Assembly (NCBI GenBank): GCA_039920745.1
Contig: JBDSDD010000049.1
Location: 1,524 to 65,523, forward strand
DNA: 64,000 nucleotides
Origin: Burkholderiaceae bacterium
GTDB taxonomy: Bacteria; Pseudomonadota; Gammaproteobacteria; Burkholderiales; Burkholderiaceae_C
Direction of reading: 5' to 3'
Below, one piece after another: positions 43,673-62,738 of this stretch. Each line of letters opens with the position of its first letter. Position 1 is the stretch's first letter. The translations under genes were made by a program, and so were the position numbers. Below the pieces are notes generated by a model. It worked only from the letters and a program-made list of their open reading frames with translations. It searched no databases and had not been told where the DNA came from.

Positions 43673-43918
43673 GCGAAGTGTCTCCATGCGCCGTCCACCC
43701 GGGTGGCGATGGCGGCGGTTGTCGTGGTCGAAGCGCCGTCACGCGACGCTCGCACAGGAGAGCATAAGGGAGGCGGCCAACGGGCACCTGACGGCGCTCG
43801 CCAGGGAGATTTGCTGGCGCTCGGGAACGAACCCGCGCGGGTGCCGGTGTCCGCGCAGATGTCGCGGCAGTGGAGGGATGCGCGGCCCCGACGTGTCTCG
43901 CGCAGCGCCCTGGGCGCG

Positions 43919-44959: not shown

Positions 44960-45508
44960 TCAGTGGCCGCCCGAATCCGCGTTGCGGCTCGATTCGAACA
45001 GGAACCAGGCGCGCCGTTCGGTCTCGTCGATCCAGTTCTCGATGAGGCTGGCGGAGGCGATGTCCTTGTGGTCGTCGCACACGTCGTGCGCGGCGCGCAG
45101 GCTGGCGGCGAGTTGCTGGTTGTCCTGGTGCAACTCGGCCAGCATGTCCAGCGGCGTCACGAACTCGGCGTCGTTGTCGGACACGCGCTGCAGCCTGGCG
45201 ATGTGCCCGATGGACCGCAGCGTCACGCCGCCGAGCTTGCGCACGCGCTCGGCGAGCGGATCGGTCATCGCGTAGAGCTGGTCGCCCTGGTCGTCAAGCA
45301 GCAGGTGATAGTCGCGGAAATGCGGCCCGCTCATGTGCCAGTGGAAGTTCTTGGTCTTCAGGTAGATCGCGAACACGTCGGCCAGGATCGCGTTGAGCGC
45401 GCCGCTGATGTCCTTGGTCGCCTTGGCGCCCAGGTCGGTGGGCGTGGCGATGGCCGCGCCACGACGGCTCTTGGCGGCTGCGGCCTTCTTCGGGGACAGC
45501 GTCTTCAT
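44960..45508 (-). CDS. dps: Dps-family DNA protection protein
   Basis: KTKNFHWHMSGPHFRDYHLLLDDQ, D.LAER, E.ERRAWFL. Confidence 0.9.
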   Translation of the reverse strand: MKTLSPKKAAAAKSRRGAAIATPTDLGAKATKDISGALNAILADVFAIYLKTKNFHWHMSGPHFRDYHLLLDDQGDQLYAMTDPLAERVRKLGGVTLRSIGHIARLQRVSDNDAEFVTPLDMLAELHQDNQQLAASLRAAHDVCDDHKDIASASLIENWIDETERRAWFLFESSRNADSGGH

Positions 45509-45759
45509 GCGGTGGACCTCCTGATGAGTTGGTAATCGCCGTCGCTGCGCGAAGGCGGCCGACCAAGGTTACTCGCGCAACTATCTCCCCATCGTAGGAC
45601 AGGCACTCGACCGCAGGGAAATGGGTGCCCCGGCCACTGTTTATCCGGAGTTTGCCGAACTGTGTCCAGGTTGATATAGCGGGGGGTTTCCGGCGCTCAT
45701 CGGGGATTCCACGGAGCCTCCTGCGCCTAGTATTCGATCATCGAAACCGGAGTCTCACC

Positions 45760-46401
45760 ATGACGCAAGTCCACTCTTCCGGTGGCGCCAGGGGCCCCTT
45801 CGCCACTCCCGTGTCGAAAGGAAAGGCCAAGGCGGCCGCCCAACCCGACAAGAAGATCGCCGTTCCCAAGGCGATCGAGGCCAAGCCGTCGGCGCATGCG
45901 GTCAAGAACGGGACACAGGTCTCCTTCGGCAAGCAGGCGCTGCACGCCCTCGAGAGCACCAGCGAATTCATCGGCAAGGCGCTGCTGACCGGCGTCGAGG
46001 ACGTGGGCGAGGCCGCCTACTACACCGTCAAGGCGGTGGGCACCGGCGTGGTCGACGTGGCCAAGGGCCTGGAGGCAGCAGCCGTCGACGGCGCCAAGGG
46101 CCTGGGCGTGGGCCTGGCCGACACGGCCACCGCGATCGGCCATGGTGTCGTCCATGTCGAGAACGCGCTGGGCGACGTCTGGGGCATGGCCACGCAAGGC
46201 ATGTCGTCGGCCACGACGCTGGCCACGACGCTGGGCGCAGACGCCCAGGTGCTGGTCACCAACGTGGGCGCCGCCGCCACCGACGTGGGCGTGGGCGCCA
46301 AGGCCGTGCTGTCGGGCGTGGGCAGCGTCGCCAGCACCGCGGCCCGCTACGGCACCTACGTCGTCAAGCAGGCCGGCAAGGCCATCAACGAGCTCACCTG
46401 A
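45760..46401 (+). CDS. Hypothetical protein with tandem 11-residue amphipathic repeats
   Basis: GGAG RBS; K/A/P-rich N-terminus, TQVSFGKQAL motif, then seven consecutive 11-mers (aa 72-148). Confidence 0.8.
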   Translation: MTQVHSSGGARGPFATPVSKGKAKAAAQPDKKIAVPKAIEAKPSAHAVKNGTQVSFGKQALHALESTSEFIGKALLTGVEDVGEAAYYTVKAVGTGVVDVAKGLEAAAVDGAKGLGVGLADTATAIGHGVVHVENALGDVWGMATQGMSSATTLATTLGADAQVLVTNVGAAATDVGVGAKAVLSGVGSVASTAARYGTYVVKQAGKAINELT

Positions 46402-46438
46402 GCGTTGGCGCGGGCGCGGGCGTCACGCACGCACACGC

Positions 46439-47138
46439 GAGTTCCACCAGGCCCGGCTGTCGATCGTCGACCCCATCGTTTCCCGCGCCTGTGCGGGCAC
46501 ATTGCTGGCAATGAGCCACGCTTTGCAGAAGCGCGTTGTGGCCATGAATCCAGGCGGCGGCTTCCACCATGCCTTCCGCGATCATGGCGAAGGCTTCTGC
46601 ATCTACGCAGACGTCGCTGCGGCACTTGCTGCGGTTCGAGCGCAAGGACTGCTCTCCGCGGACGATCCGGTGGCGATCATCGACCTGGATGCCCACCGGG
46701 GAAACGGCGTTTGGGGTCTGTGCGGCAGCGACCCGTCCGTGCACGTGATGGATCTAAAGCGCCCCGGTCCATCCCGGGTTCTTTCCTGGGTCAGTTGAGG
46801 AATTCCCCTTTCAGCTCCCGATCAAGGCACAAACCACGGACGAGGCTTGCCTTGCGACGCTACGTGAAGAGCTTCCGCTCTTTCTTGCGTCAATGCCGCG
46901 CAAACCTGCGCTTGCGATCCACAACGCCGGCACGGACGTGCTTGCCGGTGACCCTGTGGGTCGGCTCGCCGTGTCCGAAGCCGGCGTCGTAGAACGCGAC
47001 GCCATGGTGCTGGACGCGCTGAGCGGACAAGGCATTCCAACTGTTGTCGTGACGAGCGGGGGCTATTCGCCCAAGTCGCATGAACTGATTGCGCAACTCG
47101 CATGGTGTGTGATGCAACTACACCACGTGCCGGCCTGA
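46439..47138 (+). pseudogene. Fragmented Zn-dependent histone-deacetylase-family gene (class IV-like)
   Basis: Frame 1: GGGFHHA..HGEGFCIYAD, IIDLDAHRGNG. Frameshift/TAA near 46755. Frame 2: ...NAGTDVLAGDPVG...SGGY. No intact 5' end. Confidence 0.8.
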
Positions 47139-47220
47139 GTGTTGCGATCCGGCATCGGCGTAGCTCGAAACGTCGAGTTCCACTGTCCTGAGCTCGATAT
47201 GGCGGCGCGAAACCCGCGTG

Positions 47221-47268
47221 CCCGAAAGCGGCCTTCCCCAACCGACAGGTCATGGCCGACTGCGGACA
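47221..47268 (+). repeat. Degenerate composite repeat, copy A
   Basis: CCCGAAAGCGGCC...TGGCCGACTGCGGACA; 33/48 ungapped identity to copy B at 47692. Confidence 0.6.
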
Positions 47269-47370
47269 GATCCAGAATATAGACAGGACGGTACGTTCAC
47301 CGCTTGCCCTTGCCTGATGGGCTGAGTCATGGCGCCAGCCGACCTGAATGCGCACGTTGGCGAACAGCGC

Positions 47371-47384
47371 TGGCCGACTGCGGA
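47371..47384 (+). repeat. Exact second copy of the repeat core TGGCCGACTGCGGA
   Basis: Identical 14-mer at 47253-47266 and 47371-47384. Confidence 0.7.
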
Positions 47385-47400
47385 GATCGGTGTCGTCCGG

Positions 47401-47637
47401 TTACCCACCGTCGCCACGGCGCCGTTGCCTCTCCTCTTCAAGTCGCTCGGCCTCCCGAGACATGTTGGCCCGGATTTTCGCGATCCGCGCAGACTCTTCC
47501 TCGAGTCGCGCGAGCTCCTTTCCGGAGAACATCAAGTTGGCCGGCAGCAGCGCCTTGCACGACTCGCAAGCTGCAACTCGCCGGTTGAAGACAGTGAAGC
47601 CACAGGCCGGGCATTTGAATTTGGATGAGTCGGTCAT
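47401..47637 (-). CDS. Small zinc-ribbon plus coiled-coil protein (78 aa)
   Basis: CPAC-x12-CESC followed by a charged helical tail (LEEESARIAKIRANMSREAERLEEERQRRR). Confidence 0.7.
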   Translation of the reverse strand: MTDSSKFKCPACGFTVFNRRVAACESCKALLPANLMFSGKELARLEEESARIAKIRANMSREAERLEEERQRRRGDGG

Positions 47638-47691
47638 CGAGTTAGGGCTGCCCGCGGCGACATGGAACAAGTTGCACTGAACCGTACGCTA

Positions 47692-47739
47692 CCCGATACC
47701 GGACGGTCCCGCCCGGTTGCTCCTGGCCGGCTGCGGGCA
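47692..47739 (+). repeat. Degenerate composite repeat, copy B
   Basis: CCCGATACCGGAC...TGGCCGGCTGCGGGCA, with the same 32-bp spacing of subunits as copy A. Confidence 0.55.
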
Positions 47740-48045
47740 TCCCTCAACGACAACCGGACGGCAGCTTCGCGCTGGAGAGGCGCCGCTTCGCGTTTTCAGC
47801 GCCGATGCCCGGACGCTCTGCGCGACTCAATGCTTGCCGGGGGCAAGCGATGGCTGAACCCCCAGCTCAGCAATGCCGCGGCAAGCAGAGCAAAGAGAGC
47901 GATGGTGCCGTTGGAGGCCATGTGGCCGCTCAAGTTGTGCATTGAAAGTTCCGAAAACTCCCGCAAGAGCGCGAAAGTTCCGACGCAGGCCTGGCATTCG
48001 CCATCCAAGTCGACATTCCGTCGCCCGAGAGAGAAGGCAACAACA

Positions 48046-49164
48046 ATGGACCCGAGACAAGCCAACCTGCAGCGACACCGCCTGCGGATGACGTTGCTTT
48101 CTGTCGTCAATTCGTTGCTCCAGTCCATCGTGATCGGCCTCTATGCCGCCTCCGAAGCCACAACCTGGTCGATCGCCGCTGCCTTCGCGGCGGCCAGCCT
48201 GGGCAGCACCGGGCTGTTTGCGATCGGGGTCAGCGCGGGTTGGCTGGTGAAGCTGGGGGACGCGCGATTGCTGATTGCGCAACTGGCCGCAAACTTCGCC
48301 ATCCAGATCGCCTTCCTGATCGCGGCGCCGCCACTGTGGATGATCTTCCTCGCCTCGACGCTCATCACCTGCACCTACGCCATGGTGGCGTTCACGCCGC
48401 GCCAGTTCACCTGGCTCTGGCTCGGCTACGGGGCCATCACGGCACTGGCGCTGTTTGCCGGACGTGACCGATTCGAGACGCCGGCACCAACGCCTTTCAA
48501 CGTCGCGATACTGTGGCTCTTCTTCTTCATGGGCGTGCGTCGCCTCGCGTTGACCGGCGCGCAGTTCAGCCGCCTGCGCGAACAACTGTCCGAGAAGAAC
48601 AAGCAGTTGACGATCCTTCTCGAGCGCAACAAGGAGTTGGCCAATCACGACGACCTGACCGGCACGTTCAATCGACGCCAGCTCATGCAATTCCTGGTCG
48701 AGGAACGCGACCGAGCCGGCCGCGCGCGCTCTTCGTTCTCGATCGCCATGCTGGACCTCGACCACTTCAAGACGATCAATGACCGATTCGGACACGCGGG
48801 AGGCGACGCGGCACTCAAGCGATTCTGTGCGCTCACGTTTGCCTCGATGCGCGCCACCGATCGCTTCGCGCGCTATGGCGGTGAGGAGTTCGTCCTGCTG
48901 ATGCCCATGACGACGTCGATCGACACCGCCTGCCAGGCTGCGGAACGGATCCGCCACGTGATCGCCAGCGACGATTGGCGCGTCACCTTCGGCGTCGACT
49001 GCACGCCGGTCACCGTGTCGGCTGGGGTGGCCACGTGGCGGCAGGACGAGACAGTCGAAGATCTGCTGGCGCGCGCCGATGCAGCGCTCTACGAGGCCAA
49101 GCGCCGGGGCAGGAACCTGTGTGTCGCCGCTGCCCCGCTGCCGATCGTCGTGCCAGCGCCCTGA
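48046..49164 (+). CDS. Membrane-bound diguanylate cyclase
   Basis: About 6 TM helices; DDLTGTFNRR, DLDHFKTIND.FGH..GD, I-site RATD, active site GGEEF. Confidence 0.92.
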   Translation: MDPRQANLQRHRLRMTLLSVVNSLLQSIVIGLYAASEATTWSIAAAFAAASLGSTGLFAIGVSAGWLVKLGDARLLIAQLAANFAIQIAFLIAAPPLWMIFLASTLITCTYAMVAFTPRQFTWLWLGYGAITALALFAGRDRFETPAPTPFNVAILWLFFFMGVRRLALTGAQFSRLREQLSEKNKQLTILLERNKELANHDDLTGTFNRRQLMQFLVEERDRAGRARSSFSIAMLDLDHFKTINDRFGHAGGDAALKRFCALTFASMRATDRFARYGGEEFVLLMPMTTSIDTACQAAERIRHVIASDDWRVTFGVDCTPVTVSAGVATWRQDETVEDLLARADAALYEAKRRGRNLCVAAAPLPIVVPAP

Positions 49165-49341
49165 AATCAGGGGTCGAAGCCAGTCGCGACCTTGGCAGCG
49201 GGCCACGCGAGGCTCGCGCGCGCGACGCGGCAATCGCCTCCGAAGCGACCTCGCAGTCAAGCTTCATCGACATCGAGCCGAGACCGAAATCCGTTTCGAA
49301 TTTCGCGCGAATCCACACAGCGTGTCGAAGCGCCATCCCGC

Positions 49342-49779
49342 CTAATATCGGTGCCGCGCGACCTTGCGCCAGCGGCTGCCCCACACGATCAGCCACAGCA
49401 GCACCCCCTGCAGCGGCAGGCGCAGCCAGAGCAGCCACACCGGCACGTCGAACTGCTCGTGGATGTGCAACATGTAGATGTTGGCCGGCGTCAGCGCCAG
49501 CGTCAGCGCGAACAGGCACCAGCCCGCGAGGCGGCGCGTCCACGGCAGCACGAGACCGAACGCGCCCGCGAGCTCCAACAGGCCGGTGAGCAGCACGACG
49601 TCGCGCGCATCGGGGATCTGCGGGGGCACGATGCGCACCTCGAGATCGGTAAGCACGAAGTGTGCGATGCCGCCGAAGAAGAACCAGCAGAAAACGAACA
49701 CCAGCGCCACGCGTTGCCAGCGTGTGCCGCGCCGCTCGGGCTGTGACGATTCAGCGGAGACGAAGGGCAGGTAGTTCAC
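49342..49779 (-). CDS. DoxX-family membrane protein
   Basis: GGIAHF...TGLLELAGAFGL...GWCLFAL....TPANIYM. Start could instead be ATG 49803. Confidence 0.8.
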   Translation of the reverse strand: MNYLPFVSAESSQPERRGTRWQRVALVFVFCWFFFGGIAHFVLTDLEVRIVPPQIPDARDVVLLTGLLELAGAFGLVLPWTRRLAGWCLFALTLALTPANIYMLHIHEQFDVPVWLLWLRLPLQGVLLWLIVWGSRWRKVARHRY

Positions 49780-49976
49780 GCGCGGCACCCTCCCCTTGGG
49801 CATGGGTGGGATCGGTACAGGCAGTGCAGCGGGAATCTCGTCACGGGTCTCTCGGCCGCGTTCACGGGGCGCGGCATGGAATCAGGGTCGGGCGGACATG
49901 ATCGCCCACGCTTTGCCCGACCTGGGCTTTCGTGACGAAAAAAACGTAAACGTTTGCGCCCGCGGTCGAGCTGTGC

Positions 49977-62267: not shown

Positions 62268-62738
62268 ATGCCCACGATCAGCCCCACGCTCACCCTGCCC
62301 CAGCCCACCCTGTCGCCTGCCGCGTCGACGAAGGCCGCCGCCCCGGCGCCCGCCGGCGCGCCGACGACGCCCGTCGCGGTGACCAAGGCCCCTGAGCCCA
62401 GCACGACGGTGACGCTGAGCCCGCAGGCGATGAGCGCGATGGCCGCTGCGGCAAATCCGTCGCCTTCGCCTGCGTCGTCGAACACAGCCAGCGGTGCGGC
62501 GCCAATGCCCGCCCCCGCCGCGCACGACAGCTCCGTCTACGAATCGCTCAAGAACGGCATCTCCACAGCGGTCACCGATGTCGGCGACGCGATCGTGGAC
62601 GGCGCGCATGCGGTCGTCGACGGCGTCGAGACCACGCTGTCCACCGCCAACAAGGTGGCCAAGGGCATCGTCGAGTTCCCTTTCGCGGCCATGTCCAAGG
62701 CCAGCGACGCCGTTGGCGCGCTCATCGACAAGCTCTGA
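62268..62738 (+). CDS. Hypothetical protein, Pro/Ala/Thr-rich N-terminus, amphipathic C-terminus
   Basis: AAGGA RBS; STTVTLSPQAM motif; C-terminal 11-period segments GISTAVTDVGD/AIVDGAHAVVD/GVETTLSTANK. Confidence 0.8.
   Translation: MPTISPTLTLPQPTLSPAASTKAAAPAPAGAPTTPVAVTKAPEPSTTVTLSPQAMSAMAAAANPSPSPASSNTASGAAPMPAPAAHDSSVYESLKNGISTAVTDVGDAIVDGAHAVVDGVETTLSTANKVAKGIVEFPFAAMSKASDAVGALIDKL

What the first reader, a model, noticed from the sequence alone, without database searches (positions are those of the whole stretch)
45760..46401. Unknown protein with seven exact-period 11-residue amphipathic repeats and an FlgM-like motif
Seen: GKALLTGVEDV/GEAAYYTVKAV/GTGVVDVAKGL/EAAAVDGAKGL/GVGLADTATAI/GHGVVHVENAL/GDVWGMATQGM, preceded by a disordered N-terminus with TQVSFGKQAL; no Sec signal. 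Established: 11-mer repeats form lipid-binding 11/3 helices in alpha-synuclein, apolipoproteins and perilipins, and Salmonella FlgM contains SVTLSDAQ. Inference: a type III or flagellar-exported, or lipid/PHA-granule-binding, protein of an undescribed family.
Basis: partly seen in the sequence, partly recalled or inferred. Interest (0 to 1): 0.65.

Follow-up and report, generated by a model that had tools for sequence, protein, structure and literature searches.

The report
Orphan 11-residue-repeat protein beside dps
This is a real, conserved gene for an uncharacterised soil-bacterial protein built from about fourteen 11-residue amphipathic-helix units; its function is unknown, and a sister copy is always co-transcribed with a flagellar-ring-like outer-membrane protein.

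Summary
The ORF at 45760-46401 is a real gene: it has a GGAG ribosome-binding site, a conserved promoter region and dN/dS of 0.32-0.56. Its 11-residue period (lag-11 z=5.8) runs from residue 52 to the C-terminus, about 14.6 units rather than seven. In 97 orthologues this domain changes length only by 11 or 33 residues. No Pfam, NCBIfam, PHROG or PDB family matches, and AlphaFold gives no confident fold (pLDDT 33-40).

The family is nearly confined to one Sphaerotilaceae genus, probably Scleromatobacter, with 3-5 paralogues per genome. This copy always lies back-to-back with dps. Another copy is the first gene of a conserved module: repeat protein, lipoprotein, divergent FlgH-like protein.

The "FlgM-like motif" is a marginal 16-column resemblance (E 0.013), not FlgM membership. 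The helix chemistry falls between alpha-synuclein and perilipin 4.

My best reading, at about 35%, is a stress-linked protein that folds onto an apolar surface. The rivals are flagellar or envelope export (about 20%) and a tape-measure-like coiled coil (about 20%). Function is unproven, and I rate interest as moderate.

The parts
45760..46401 (+). Gene for the 213-aa hendecad-repeat protein (P0001), stop codon included.
   Evidence: Translation. Coding GC pattern. About 100 orthologues. dN/dS 0.32-0.56.
45760..45870 (+). Conserved N-terminal segment, residues 1-37: MTQVHSSGGAxAPFATPVSKGKAKAASQPDKKIAVP. It has a Ser/Thr-rich start followed by a Lys-rich tail. Residues 1-51 carry net charge +7 and have pI 10.5.
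   Evidence: Near-invariant columns M1, V4, A10, P13, F14, K24, Q28 and P36. The M[ST]x[VI]x[ST][ST]...SP[FY]AT start is shared with paralogues that are only about 30% identical. Charge values.
45871..45912 (+). Variable Ala/Pro/Gly linker, residues 38-51. Its length floats between orthologues.
   Evidence: The motif start position ranges from 42 to 61 among orthologues.
45913..45957 (+). Family signature motif, residues 52-66 (TQVSFGKQALHALES).
   Evidence: G57, A60 and L61 are invariant in 99 sequences. All paralogue types carry it. It aligns to FlgM residues 35-50 with E 0.013.
45913..46398 (+). Proline-free amphipathic hendecad array, residues 52-213, about 14.6 units.
   Evidence: Lag-11 z=5.75. 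Spectral peak at 99.5 degrees. Hydrophobic moment 0.27-0.30. Measured from the residue before the V of the motif, the domain is 161 aa in 91 of 97 orthologues, 150 aa in 5 and 128 aa in 1.
45973..46203 (+). This includes the best-conserved block, GHGVVHVENAxxDVWG.
   Evidence: Register printed. G127, G129, E134 and W141 are invariant. The block is recognisable in the out-of-genus homologue in L045.
46306..46398 (+). Conserved C-terminal module, residues 183-213 (VLSGVGSVASTAAxYGTYVVKQxGKxxNELT).
   Evidence: A191, A195, Y197 and G198 are invariant. The module is retained in all paralogue types and in the out-of-genus members.
45509..45759 (.). Divergent dps/target intergenic region. Conserved blocks: TTATCCGGAGTTTGC (45641-45655), TGTGTC (45661-45666), GTTGATATAGCGGGGGG (45670-45686), a -10-like TAGTAT (45728-45733) and the GGAG ribosome-binding site (45749-45752).
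   Evidence: Alignment of 10 genomes. The long blocks are unique in the genome. A nhmmer model built only from paralogue upstream regions hits this region with E 0.015. No consensus sigma-70 site and no Rfam match.
44960..45508 (-). Dps-like ferritin (182 aa), the constant divergent neighbour.
   Evidence: PF00210, E 7.5e-27. It is adjacent and divergent in every orthologue locus that has enough flank.
62268..62738 (+). Short 156-aa paralogue of the same family, in the same window. It has a Pro/Ala-rich N-terminus, the motif TTVTLSPQAMSAM, and 3-4 hendecads.
   Evidence: Profile hit with E 1.5e-4. ORF. Aligned with the family. More than 80 clusters of this size class were found in metagenomes.

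Best explanation
**What it is (shown).** The gene encodes a cytoplasmically made, 213-aa protein of an undescribed family. It has three parts:
- a conserved Ser/Thr-rich N-terminus that runs into a Lys-rich tail;
- a family motif, xTxV[ST][FL][GS]xxALxALE;
- a proline-free array of 11-residue units that ends in a conserved 30-residue C-terminal module.

**How it most likely works (inferred).** Alone, the array is largely unfolded. On contact with an apolar interface it folds into one long 11/3 amphipathic helix, or a few of them. About seven of the eleven wheel positions carry small apolar residues (Ala, Val, Gly, Thr), and these would lie on the surface. The narrow Asp/Glu/Lys/His stripe would face water. 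The interface could be the inner face of the cytoplasmic membrane, a PHB granule or a lipid body. The requirement to keep one continuous face would explain why evolution adds or removes only whole 11-residue units.

**When it acts (inferred).** It is transcribed from its own tightly conserved promoter, back-to-back with dps in the bfd-bfr-dps iron-storage island. Its sister copy lies among zur, a ZIP transporter, thioredoxin-2 and a catalase-like gene. I therefore take it to be a stress-period surface-coating or membrane-stabilising protein for oxidative, metal or stationary-phase stress.

**The basic tail (speculative).** The tail contains one degenerate PxKKxA element. It may tether the protein to DNA or to anionic lipid, as the PAKKA tail of Rhodococcus MLDS does.
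For: - **Period and amphipathicity:**
- **Phase constraint:** all 6 length variants among 97 orthologues differ by 11 or 33 residues, while the N-terminal linker varies freely.
- **No stable fold predicted:** two AlphaFold runs, with 23 and 99 sequences, give pLDDT 33.5 and 40.5 and pTM about 0.2, with only local helices.
- **Composition:** hydrophobic 0.49, aromatic 0.043, charged 0.14, moment 0.27-0.30, length 162. This lies within or close to the range of alpha-synuclein (0.47/0.02/0.24/0.30) and Plin4 (0.35/0.002/0.15/0.257) in PMC5889406 Table 1. The same paper shows that such weak, long Thr/Gly/Val-rich helices are unfolded in solution and coat lipid droplets.
- **Related repeats elsewhere:** remote proteins with look-alike 11-mers score on Phasin_2 and Perilipin_2.
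- **No export signal:** no signal peptide or TM segment.
- **Possible targets:** the genome has PhaC and a phasin, so granules probably exist.
- **Stress context:** dps, bfr and bfd for this copy. For the paralogue: zur, ZIP, thioredoxin-2 and a faint, sub-threshold Pfam Catalase hit on a neighbouring gene.
- **Precedent for the architecture:** MLDS combines a surface-binding domain with a Lys-rich DNA tail (PMC5504291).
- **Weak lead:** the paralogue gives a sub-threshold hit to the sll1863 general-stress family, E 6e-4.
Against: - No expression, localisation or binding data exist.
- There is no homology to phasins. hhalign against the genome's own phasin gives probability 0.1%.
- There is no Pfam hit to perilipin, synuclein, apolipoprotein or LEA families.
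- The gene is not near pha genes.
- The dps adjacency is confined to one genus. Dps orthologues in five other genera lack such a neighbour, so the linkage may be historical rather than functional.
- Outside the genus, the only gene partners recurrently found beside family members (two cases) are an outer-membrane lipoprotein and a FlgH-like protein. That points to the envelope, not the cytoplasm.
- Low pLDDT can also reflect a shallow, low-diversity alignment.
Confidence: 0.35

Rival explanations
1. **Exported envelope protein.** The family would be made of Sec-independent substrates that leave the cytoplasm through the flagellar type III apparatus, or another non-classical route, using the conserved Ser/Thr-rich N-terminus. 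They would act in the periplasm or at the outer membrane together with the divergent FlgH-like ring protein and its partner lipoprotein. The dps-adjacent gene would be a stress-regulated duplicate of that substrate.
For: - The paralogue is the first gene of a tight module: repeat protein, 29-nt gap, lipoprotein, FlgH (PF02107, E 6e-40). The module is conserved across the genus.
- The module recurs in two other genera, one of them in another family.
- This FlgH is the only one in the genome, and the flagellar cluster runs flgG to flgI without it.
- The one genus member that lacks the family (G006) keeps a canonical flgH inside its flagellar cluster.
- The first ~60 residues are built like FlgM: a Ser/Thr-rich start, a disordered linker, then the motif.
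- The N-termini resemble those of FlgD and FlgJ in this genome.
- The genome has one FlhA.
- The upstream ~100 nt of target and paralogue align collinearly, which suggests shared control.
Against: - The FlgM resemblance is marginal: 16 columns, probability 3%.
- No sigma-28 promoter lies upstream of either gene.
- Neither gene lies in the flagellar cluster.
- The promoter homology is weak in one direction: E 0.015 one way and E 5 the other.
- G164 carries the module as well as a canonical flgH, so the module's FlgH may not be flagellar.
- The phyletic pattern within the genus amounts to a single evolutionary event.
- Type III signals cannot be recognised reliably from sequence.
Confidence: 0.2
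2. **Elongated hendecad coiled coil.** The array would form a stable, extended, parallel or antiparallel helical oligomer, like the 11-residue repeat section of phage tail tape-measure proteins. It would act as a spacer, ruler or scaffold whose length is set by the number of units.
For: - Indels come only in multiples of 11, as in tape-measure proteins (PMC3271669).
- The C80 paralogue matches tape-measure PHROGs: phrog_1535 at E 3e-7, plus phrog_305 and phrog_1272. JGI labels it 'phage-related protein'.
- The remote hits P0111 and P0112, which carry look-alike repeats, match tape-measure families at E 1e-32.
- The weak PDB hits are to coiled-coil or helical-bundle entries.
- About seven of eleven positions are small and apolar, which suits tight helix packing.
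- Unit number varies from about 3 to about 17 among paralogues.
Against: - The target itself has no PHROG hit at E<=0.01.
- It lacks the W/F marker every 11 residues: it has one Trp.
- AlphaFold predicts no bundle. However, only the monomer was modelled.
- A Gly at unit position 1 in most units is unusual for a rigid coiled coil.
- No phage genes are nearby.
Confidence: 0.2
3. **LEA-like shield or Dps partner.** The protein would be a soluble, disordered protectant that shields Dps-DNA or other proteins during drying or oxidative stress. Alternatively it would bind Dps directly through its conserved N-terminal peptide.
For: - Group 3 LEA proteins have 11-mer units (general knowledge).
- The divergent pairing with dps is constant within the genus.
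- The N-terminal peptide is conserved.
- Both Dps and the target carry Lys/Ala tails. The Dps N-terminus reads SPKKAAAAK.
Against: - The repeat domain is not hydrophilic: GRAVY is +0.44 and only 14% of residues are charged.
- There is no LEA_4 hit.
- Dps in other genera has no such neighbour.
- The paralogues have no Dps next to them.
Confidence: 0.08
4. **Metal-handling accessory protein.** The acidic and histidine-bearing stripe would bind iron or zinc, which would link this copy to ferritins and the sister copy to Zur and ZIP.
For: - Both copies lie in metal-homeostasis neighbourhoods.
- E134 is invariant and H132 nearly so in 99 sequences.
- The paralogue is rich in His, Glu and Asp.
Against: - There is no recognisable metal-binding motif, no Cys, and only 5 His in the target.
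- H132 is not conserved in the paralogues.
- In several genomes a 2.4-2.7 kb gene separates ZIP from the paralogue.
Confidence: 0.05

Closest known systems
11-mer amphipathic helices of perilipin 4, alpha-synuclein and exchangeable apolipoproteins
   Same: - Exact 11-residue period and a long proline-free array of 162 aa.
- Weak hydrophobic moment (0.27-0.30).
- Enrichment in Ala, Val, Gly and Thr, with few aromatics (4%) and few charges (14%).
- One Gly per unit.
- No predicted fold for the free protein.

Sources. Comparison values from PMC5889406.
   Different: - No sequence-family membership: Pfam Perilipin, Synuclein and Apolipoprotein models are all silent.
- It is bacterial.
- The repeat domain has net negative charge (-5), whereas Plin4 needs net positive charge.
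- It has an extra conserved N-terminal peptide and C-terminal module.
- Lipid binding has not been tested.
Phasins and granule-to-nucleoid tethers (Phasin_2 PF09361; PhaM; Rhodococcus MLDS)
   Same: - A small, amphipathic helical protein without a signal peptide, in a PHA-capable genome.
- A surface-binding domain combined with a Lys-rich tail, as in MLDS (PMC5504291) and PhaM (PMC3556143).
- Remote repeat look-alikes touch Phasin_2.
   Different: - No profile match. hhalign against the genome's own phasin gives probability 0.1%.
- The gene is not near pha genes.
- The tail is N-terminal and has only one degenerate PxKKxA element, against four PAKKA motifs in MLDS.
FlgM anti-sigma-28 factor (PF04316)
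   Same: - A disordered, Ser/Thr-rich N-terminus followed by an [ST]xV[ST]L[SG]xxA motif about 50 residues in.
- The genome's own FlgM reads STQVELSPEATML.
- A profile-profile alignment places the two motifs on each other.
   Different: - Only 16 columns align, with E 0.013 and probability 3%.
- The sigma-28-binding C-terminal helices are absent.
- PF04316 does not hit.
- The gene is outside the flagellar cluster.
- The genome already has a bona fide flgM next to flgN and flgA.
11-residue repeat section of phage tail tape-measure proteins
   Same: - An 11-aa unit whose copy number changes by whole units (PMC3271669).
- The sister paralogue hits tape-measure PHROGs at E 3e-7.
   Different: - The target itself gives no PHROG hit.
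- There is no W/F marker once per unit.
- There is no phage context.
- It is ten times shorter than a tape measure.
Group 3 LEA proteins (LEA_4) and bacterial general-stress disordered proteins (e.g. Sll1863)
   Same: - 11-mer amphipathic units and a stress-gene neighbourhood.
- The paralogue gives a sub-threshold sll1863_fam hit (E 6e-4).
- Sll1863 is a top general-stress protein of unknown function (PMC8670252).
   Different: - The repeat domain is apolar (GRAVY +0.44), not a hydrophilin.
- There is no LEA_4 hit.
- The sll1863 score (19.9 bits) is far below the cut-off of 35.

Membership tests
FlgM (PF04316) | Profile match to the FlgM domain, i.e. the sigma-28-binding C-terminal helices. 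| tested here: not met
   No PF04316 hit even at E<=10. hhalign of the family against the genome's own FlgM gives probability 0.3%. Profile against profile, only a 16-column N-side motif aligns, with E 0.013 and probability 3%.
FlgM (PF04316) | Location in the flagellar regulon, next to flgN and flgA or under a sigma-28 promoter. | tested here: not met
   The true flgM is at C19:91345-91659, beside flgN and flgA. No TAAA/TCAAG-N15-GCCGATAA-type site lies upstream of the target.
Flagellar type III secretion substrate (functional class) | FlhA-dependent export directed by a disordered N-terminus. | not testable with these tools
   Only indirect hints are available: the conserved Ser/Thr-rich N-terminus, one FlhA in the genome, and a paralogue in an operon with FlgH.
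Phasin (PF09361 Phasin_2 / PF05597) | Profile match to a phasin family. | tested here: not met
   None of the 25 family members hits any phasin model at E<=1. hhalign against the genome's own phasin gives probability 0.1%.
Phasin (PF09361 Phasin_2 / PF05597) | Binding to PHA granules, or genomic linkage to phaC, phaR or phaP. | not testable with these tools
   phaC (C44) and the phasin (C26) are on other contigs. Binding cannot be assessed computationally.
Perilipin / synuclein / apolipoprotein 11-mer amphipathic helices | Uninterrupted 11-residue period with a coherent hydrophobic face over more than 60 residues. | tested here: met
   Lag-11 z=5.75. A single spectral peak at 99.5 degrees over 164 residues. 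Moment 0.27-0.30 against 0.12-0.17 in shuffles, and no Pro.
Perilipin / synuclein / apolipoprotein 11-mer amphipathic helices | Sequence-family membership (Pfam Perilipin, Synuclein, Apolipoprotein). | tested here: not met
   No hits.
Perilipin / synuclein / apolipoprotein 11-mer amphipathic helices | Disordered when free; helix induced by a lipid surface. | tested here: inconclusive
   AlphaFold pLDDT of 33.5 and 40.5 with local helices only is compatible with this but is not proof. CD with lipid is needed.
Group 3 LEA (LEA_4, PF02987) / hydrophilins | Highly hydrophilic 11-mer units and a profile match. | tested here: not met
   GRAVY of the repeat domain is +0.44 with 14% charged residues. 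No LEA_4 hit.
Phage tape-measure 11-aa repeats | Match to tape-measure families, with a W/F marker at an 11-residue period. | tested here: not met
   The target has no PHROG hit at E<=0.01 and a single Trp. The sister paralogue does hit phrog_1535 at E 3e-7.
New family (this work): hendecad-repeat proteins of Scleromatobacter-like Sphaerotilaceae | M[ST]x[VI] Ser/Thr-rich start, the xTxV[ST][FL][GS]xxALxAL motif, a variable hendecad array, and a C-terminal ...A.Y[GA]......GK..[NS]E[LA]x module. | tested here: met
   Alignments A1, A4, A6 and A7. Found in 13 of 14 genomes of the genus and 0 of 47 other genera by profile. Two remote members were found by gene context.

The most novel reading that the evidence does not exclude
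The family, a partner lipoprotein and a divergent FlgH-like ring protein would together form a previously unrecognised envelope device. It would be derived from, or in this clade would replace, the flagellar L-ring. The hendecad protein would be its Sec-independent exported component: a length-quantised filament, ruler or plug. The dps-adjacent gene would be a stress-controlled second substrate of the same device.
Probability: 0.12. Interest if true: 0.8.

Novelty: new variant of a known kind. Interest (0 to 1): 0.45.

Why it matters
- **A bacterial counterpart of eukaryotic surface-coating helices.** If the best reading holds, this would be a bacterial, non-homologous equivalent of perilipin- or synuclein-type helices. 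The length quantisation in steps of 11 residues is a clean natural experiment on why the phase of an 11/3 helix must be kept.
- **A possible new envelope system.** If the envelope reading holds, it would expose an unknown partner system of a FlgH-like outer-membrane ring. It would also document a clade that lost the canonical flgH from its flagellar cluster.
- **It is testable.** The family appears to be present in a cultured type strain, probably Scleromatobacter humisilvae.
- **If neither reading holds,** it remains one more lineage-restricted hypothetical protein.

Tried and rejected
- **Family libraries.** Pfam, NCBIfam, PHROGs and PDB sequence searches on the target and on 25 family members gave nothing significant.
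- **Exhaustive protein search.** phmmer over 1.84 billion cluster representatives found 8 hits at E<=1e-10, several of them fragments of the same family, plus a few low-scoring repeat look-alikes.
- **Structure prediction.** Two AlphaFold runs gave no usable model, so no fold search was run.
- **RNA and promoters.** The Rfam search and the sigma-70/terminator scan of the locus were empty.
- **Regulon search.** The conserved upstream blocks occur nowhere else in the genome. nhmmer found only the target and one paralogue.
- **Sigma-28 promoter.** None lies at the target or the paralogue. The local fliC promoter was used as the yardstick.
- **Dps as a conserved partner.** Rejected beyond the genus.
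- **Sbal_3080-family lipoproteins as a marker of the module.** Canonical members in other Gammaproteobacteria have no FlgH or repeat-protein neighbour.
- **Recent DNA tandem duplication.** Rejected.
- **Spurious ORF, or the overlapping minus-strand ORF 45727-46197 being the real gene.** Rejected on codon-position GC, conservation and dN/dS.
- **One failed scan.** The genome-contig scan with the broad alignment failed. It was repeated with the narrow alignment.
Full report
**1. The observation**

The seven listed 11-mers sit at residues 72-148 and TQVSFGKQAL at residues 52-61.

The period is not a chance effect:
- Identical residues at lag 11 number 36, against 15.6 expected (z=5.75). Lags 22 and 33 are also raised.
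- The hydrophobicity spectrum of residues 50-213 has a single sharp peak at 99.5 degrees, with power 169. The maximum in 500 shuffles averages 45, and the highest seen was 109.
- The period runs on to the C-terminus, giving about 14.6 units rather than seven.
- No 33-nt tandem array is detectable in the DNA. The repeat is therefore ancient and is maintained at the protein level.

There is no signal peptide or transmembrane segment. The highest 19-residue Kyte-Doolittle mean is 1.23.

**2. It is a real gene**

- GC by codon position is 0.67/0.51/0.86, as in the neighbouring genes.
- A GGAG lies 7 nt before the ATG.
- About 100 full-length homologues of 202-221 aa exist at 57-85% identity. All come from metagenomes or MAGs labelled Burkholderiaceae, Vitreoscilla or Betaproteobacteria, and all are annotated "hypothetical".
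- Pairwise dN/dS is 0.32-0.56. This is purifying selection, but looser than on the adjacent dps (0.12-0.22).

**3. Anatomy**

Alignments of 23 and 99 orthologues show four parts:
- **(a) Residues 1-37:** a strikingly conserved N-terminal stretch, MTQVHSSGGAxAPFATPVSKGKAKAASQPDKKIAVP.
- **(b) Residues 38-51:** a variable linker.
- **(c) The motif:** GTQVSFGxxALHALE.
- **(d) The array:** its best-conserved block is GHG(V/I)VHVENAxxDVWG, and it ends in a conserved C-terminal module, ...STAAxYGTYVVKQxGKxxNELT.

Residues 1-51 carry net charge +7 (pI 10.5). The repeat domain carries -5 (pI 5.0), has no proline, and has GRAVY +0.44.

In the 11-position profile only positions 1, 2 and 9 have a negative mean hydropathy. 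They fall in a four-position arc of the 11/3 wheel (positions 1, 5, 9, 2). The remaining seven positions hold Ala, Val, Gly, Thr or Leu.

The most telling result concerns length. I measured the domain from the motif to the C-terminus, starting one residue before the V of the motif. It is 161 residues in 91 of 97 complete orthologues, 150 in five and 128 in one. Every indel is therefore 11 or 33 residues. Meanwhile the N-terminal linker varies freely, with the motif starting anywhere from position 42 to 61. Selection thus preserves the phase of the helix.

**4. No known family, no predicted fold**

- Pfam, NCBIfam, PHROGs and PDB sequence profiles give nothing significant for the target or for 25 family members.
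- phmmer against 1.84 billion cluster representatives finds 8 hits at E<=1e-10, several of them fragments of the same family, plus weak repeat look-alikes.
- AlphaFold2 with 23 and with 99 sequences gives mean pLDDT 33.5 and 40.5 and pTM about 0.2, with only local helices in the C-terminal half.

**5. Distribution and paralogues**

A family profile finds matches in 13 of 14 genomes of the window's genus and in none of 47 other genera of the family and order.

The genus is probably Scleromatobacter (Sphaerotilaceae). Two observations support this:
- A short family member is annotated in S. humisilvae on a contig of 579,168 bp, the length of contig C3 of G013.
- The FlgM of that species is 87% identical to the FlgM of this genome.

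Each genome has 3-5 paralogues. The types are:
- the dps-adjacent type, found in 11 of 14 genomes;
- a more acidic 237-244-aa type (G000:C80, locus L025 6494-7228, minus strand);
- a roughly 156-aa type, one copy of which is in this window at 62268-62738;
- in some genomes a 173-aa type.

All types share the same architecture, and the number of units ranges from about 3 to about 17:
- the M[ST]x[VI]x[ST][ST]...SP[FY]AT start;
- the xTV[ST][FL][SG]xxA[LM] motif;
- hendecads;
- the C-terminal module.

**6. Context of this copy**

In every orthologue locus with enough flank, the gene is divergent from a Dps-like ferritin, with 250-290 bp between them. Bfr and Bfd usually follow.

The intergenic DNA nearest the target contains blocks that are invariant across the genus:
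- TTATCCGGAGTTTGC;
- TGTGTC-N3-GTTGATATAGCGGGGGG;
- a -10-like TAG(T/G)AT;
- CATCGAAACCGGAGTC.

The long blocks are unique in the genome. They match no Rfam family and no consensus sigma-70 promoter.

However, Dps orthologues in five other genera have no such neighbour. The pairing is therefore a feature of this genus, and part of its constancy simply reflects synteny.

**7. Context of the sister copy**

The acidic paralogue is the first gene of a tight module:
- the repeat protein;
- a 29-nt gap, then a 179-aa lipoprotein, which is a sub-threshold Sbal_3080-family member (E 2e-12);
- a FlgH-family protein (PF02107, E 6e-40).

An OmpR-type regulator, thioredoxin-2 and a gene with a faint Catalase Pfam hit follow the module. 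zur and a ZIP transporter lie upstream. The module is conserved across the genus.

The FlgH evidence is as follows:
- This FlgH is the only one in the genome.
- The flagellar cluster on C19 runs flgB-C-D-E-F-G and then directly flgI-J-K-L.
- G006 is the one genome of the genus that lacks the whole family. It keeps a canonical flgH between flgG and flgI, only 29% identical to the module's FlgH.
- Among 401 Burkholderiales genomes, the two closest FlgH relatives (48-49% identity) lie in another genus and in another family.
- Both are again preceded by the lipoprotein and by a small protein with the same motif, hendecads and C-terminal module. In L045 this protein is 196 aa as called, with the recognisable IGHAVEEVGNAL...W block. 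In L046 it is 116 aa and ends ...AVLDELV.
- G164, the source of L045, also has a canonical flgH elsewhere.

So in every case examined outside the genus (two loci), a family member has the same gene partners: a lipoprotein and a FlgH-like outer-membrane protein. Canonical Sbal_3080 lipoproteins elsewhere have no such neighbours.

The roughly 100 nt upstream of the target and of the module paralogue align collinearly. A model built only from paralogue upstream regions finds the target's upstream region as its best non-self hit in the genome (E 0.015). The reverse search is weak (E 5). The duplication therefore probably carried the promoter with it. Shared regulation is suggested but not shown.

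**8. The FlgM idea**

The genome's real FlgM reads ...DDSSTQVELSPEATML.... A profile of family N-termini aligns its motif exactly onto that stretch. The alignment spans only 16 columns, with E 0.013 and probability 3%. With a single FlgM sequence nothing aligns.

PF04316 does not hit, and the sigma-28-binding half of FlgM is absent. No sigma-28-type promoter lies upstream of the target or the paralogue. For comparison, fliC in this genome has TCAAG-N15-TCCGAAAA. This is a resemblance in N-terminal architecture, not membership.

**9. The lipid or granule idea**

The repeat domain has hydrophobic fraction 0.49, aromatic fraction 0.043, charged fraction 0.14 and a mean 3-11 moment of 0.27-0.30 over 162 residues.

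The corresponding values in PMC5889406, Table 1, are:

| Protein | Hydrophobic | Aromatic | Charged | Moment |
|---|---|---|---|---|
| alpha-synuclein | 0.47 | 0.02 | 0.24 | 0.30 |
| Plin3 | 0.37 | 0.01 | 0.23 | 0.35 |
| Plin4 | 0.35 | 0.002 | 0.15 | 0.257 |

That paper shows that a long, weak, Thr/Gly/Val-rich 11-mer helix is unfolded in solution. It coats neutral-lipid surfaces through many weak contacts and needs more than 66 residues to do so.

Further points bear on this reading:
- Remote proteins with look-alike repeats score on Phasin_2 and Perilipin_2.
- The genome has PhaC and a canonical phasin.
- The family profile does not resemble that phasin.
- The architecture of a basic tail plus a surface-binding domain recalls MLDS, whose PAKKA tail binds DNA (PMC5504291), and PhaM (PMC3556143).

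**10. The tape-measure likeness**

The module paralogue hits tape-measure PHROGs (E 3e-7), and JGI calls it "phage-related". Two 1200-aa polymorphic-toxin-like proteins with AWDTAKxLGxK repeats hit tape-measure families at E 1e-32.

Tape-measure proteins are known to vary by whole 11-aa units (PMC3271669). The target itself has no such hit and no W/F marker.

**11. Verdict**

| Reading | Probability |
|---|---|
| Best: stress-period protein that folds conditionally and lays a long 11/3 helix onto a membrane or storage-granule surface, with the basic tail as a second anchor | about 0.35 |
| Rival: exported through the flagellar apparatus or otherwise, to work with the FlgH-like ring and lipoprotein | about 0.2 |
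| Rival: stable hendecad coiled coil acting as a spacer or ruler | about 0.2 |
| Minor: LEA-like shield or Dps partner | 0.08 |
| Minor: metal handling | 0.05 |

**Shown:**
- the gene is real;
- the hendecad architecture, and indels that keep the helical phase;
- the restricted distribution, and the absence of any known family or confident fold;
- the two conserved contexts.

**Inferred:**
- folding on contact with a surface;
- stress regulation;
- any localisation.

Noticed in passing
G000 contig C80:18193-20227 (locus L025 5191-7228, minus strand); flagellar cluster C19:90876-102847: The genome's only flgH is not in the flagellar cluster, which runs flgG directly to flgI. It lies in a module of repeat protein, lipoprotein and divergent FlgH. 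G006 is the one genus member without the repeat family, and it keeps a canonical flgH (29% identical) between flgG and flgI. The same three-gene module occurs in two other Burkholderiales genera (L045, L046).
   Followed up: partly
window 62268-62738 (+): A second, short (156-aa) member of the same family lies in this window. It has a Pro/Ala-rich N-terminus and the motif TTVTLSPQAMSAM. More than 80 related clusters of 145-158 aa exist in metagenomes, and one is annotated in Scleromatobacter humisilvae.
   Followed up: partly
window 46402-49341: This segment holds a broken deacetylase gene, a small zinc-ribbon ORF and a GGDEF cyclase. It is absent in relatives, where a MauE/DoxX-like gene (window 49342-49803) directly follows the target. 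It is therefore an insertion specific to this genome.
   Followed up: partly
window 43688-43918 versus loci L001-L006: Relatives carry a four-gene ECF-sigma cluster between the acyl-CoA synthetase gene and bfd (or dps where bfr and bfd are absent): Lipoprotein_15, a small ORF, the sigma factor and a 287-aa putative anti-sigma. The window genome lacks this cluster.
   Followed up: no
window 44960-45508 (-): The Dps-like protein has an N-terminal histone-H1-like tail, MKTLSPKKAAAAKSRR. The exact SPKKA element suggests DNA binding through the tail.
   Followed up: no
proteins P0111, P0112 (metagenomic, 1181-1228 aa): These are polymorphic-toxin-like proteins (PT-TG or Ntox1 C-terminal regions). 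Their long central part is made of AWDTAKxLGxK 11-mers that match phage tape-measure families at E 1e-32.
   Followed up: no
G000 C89:70623-70667: The 45 nt upstream of a pterin-4a-carbinolamine dehydratase gene resemble the -10/5'UTR region of the paralogue (TCATCCGAATC...GGA...CCATG; nhmmer E 0.05). This could be chance or a shared leader element.
   Followed up: no
G000 C37:148323-148718: A second, full-scoring Sbal_3080-family lipoprotein (114.6 bits) lies elsewhere in the genome. It has no FlgH-like or repeat-protein neighbour within 1.5 kb.
   Followed up: partly
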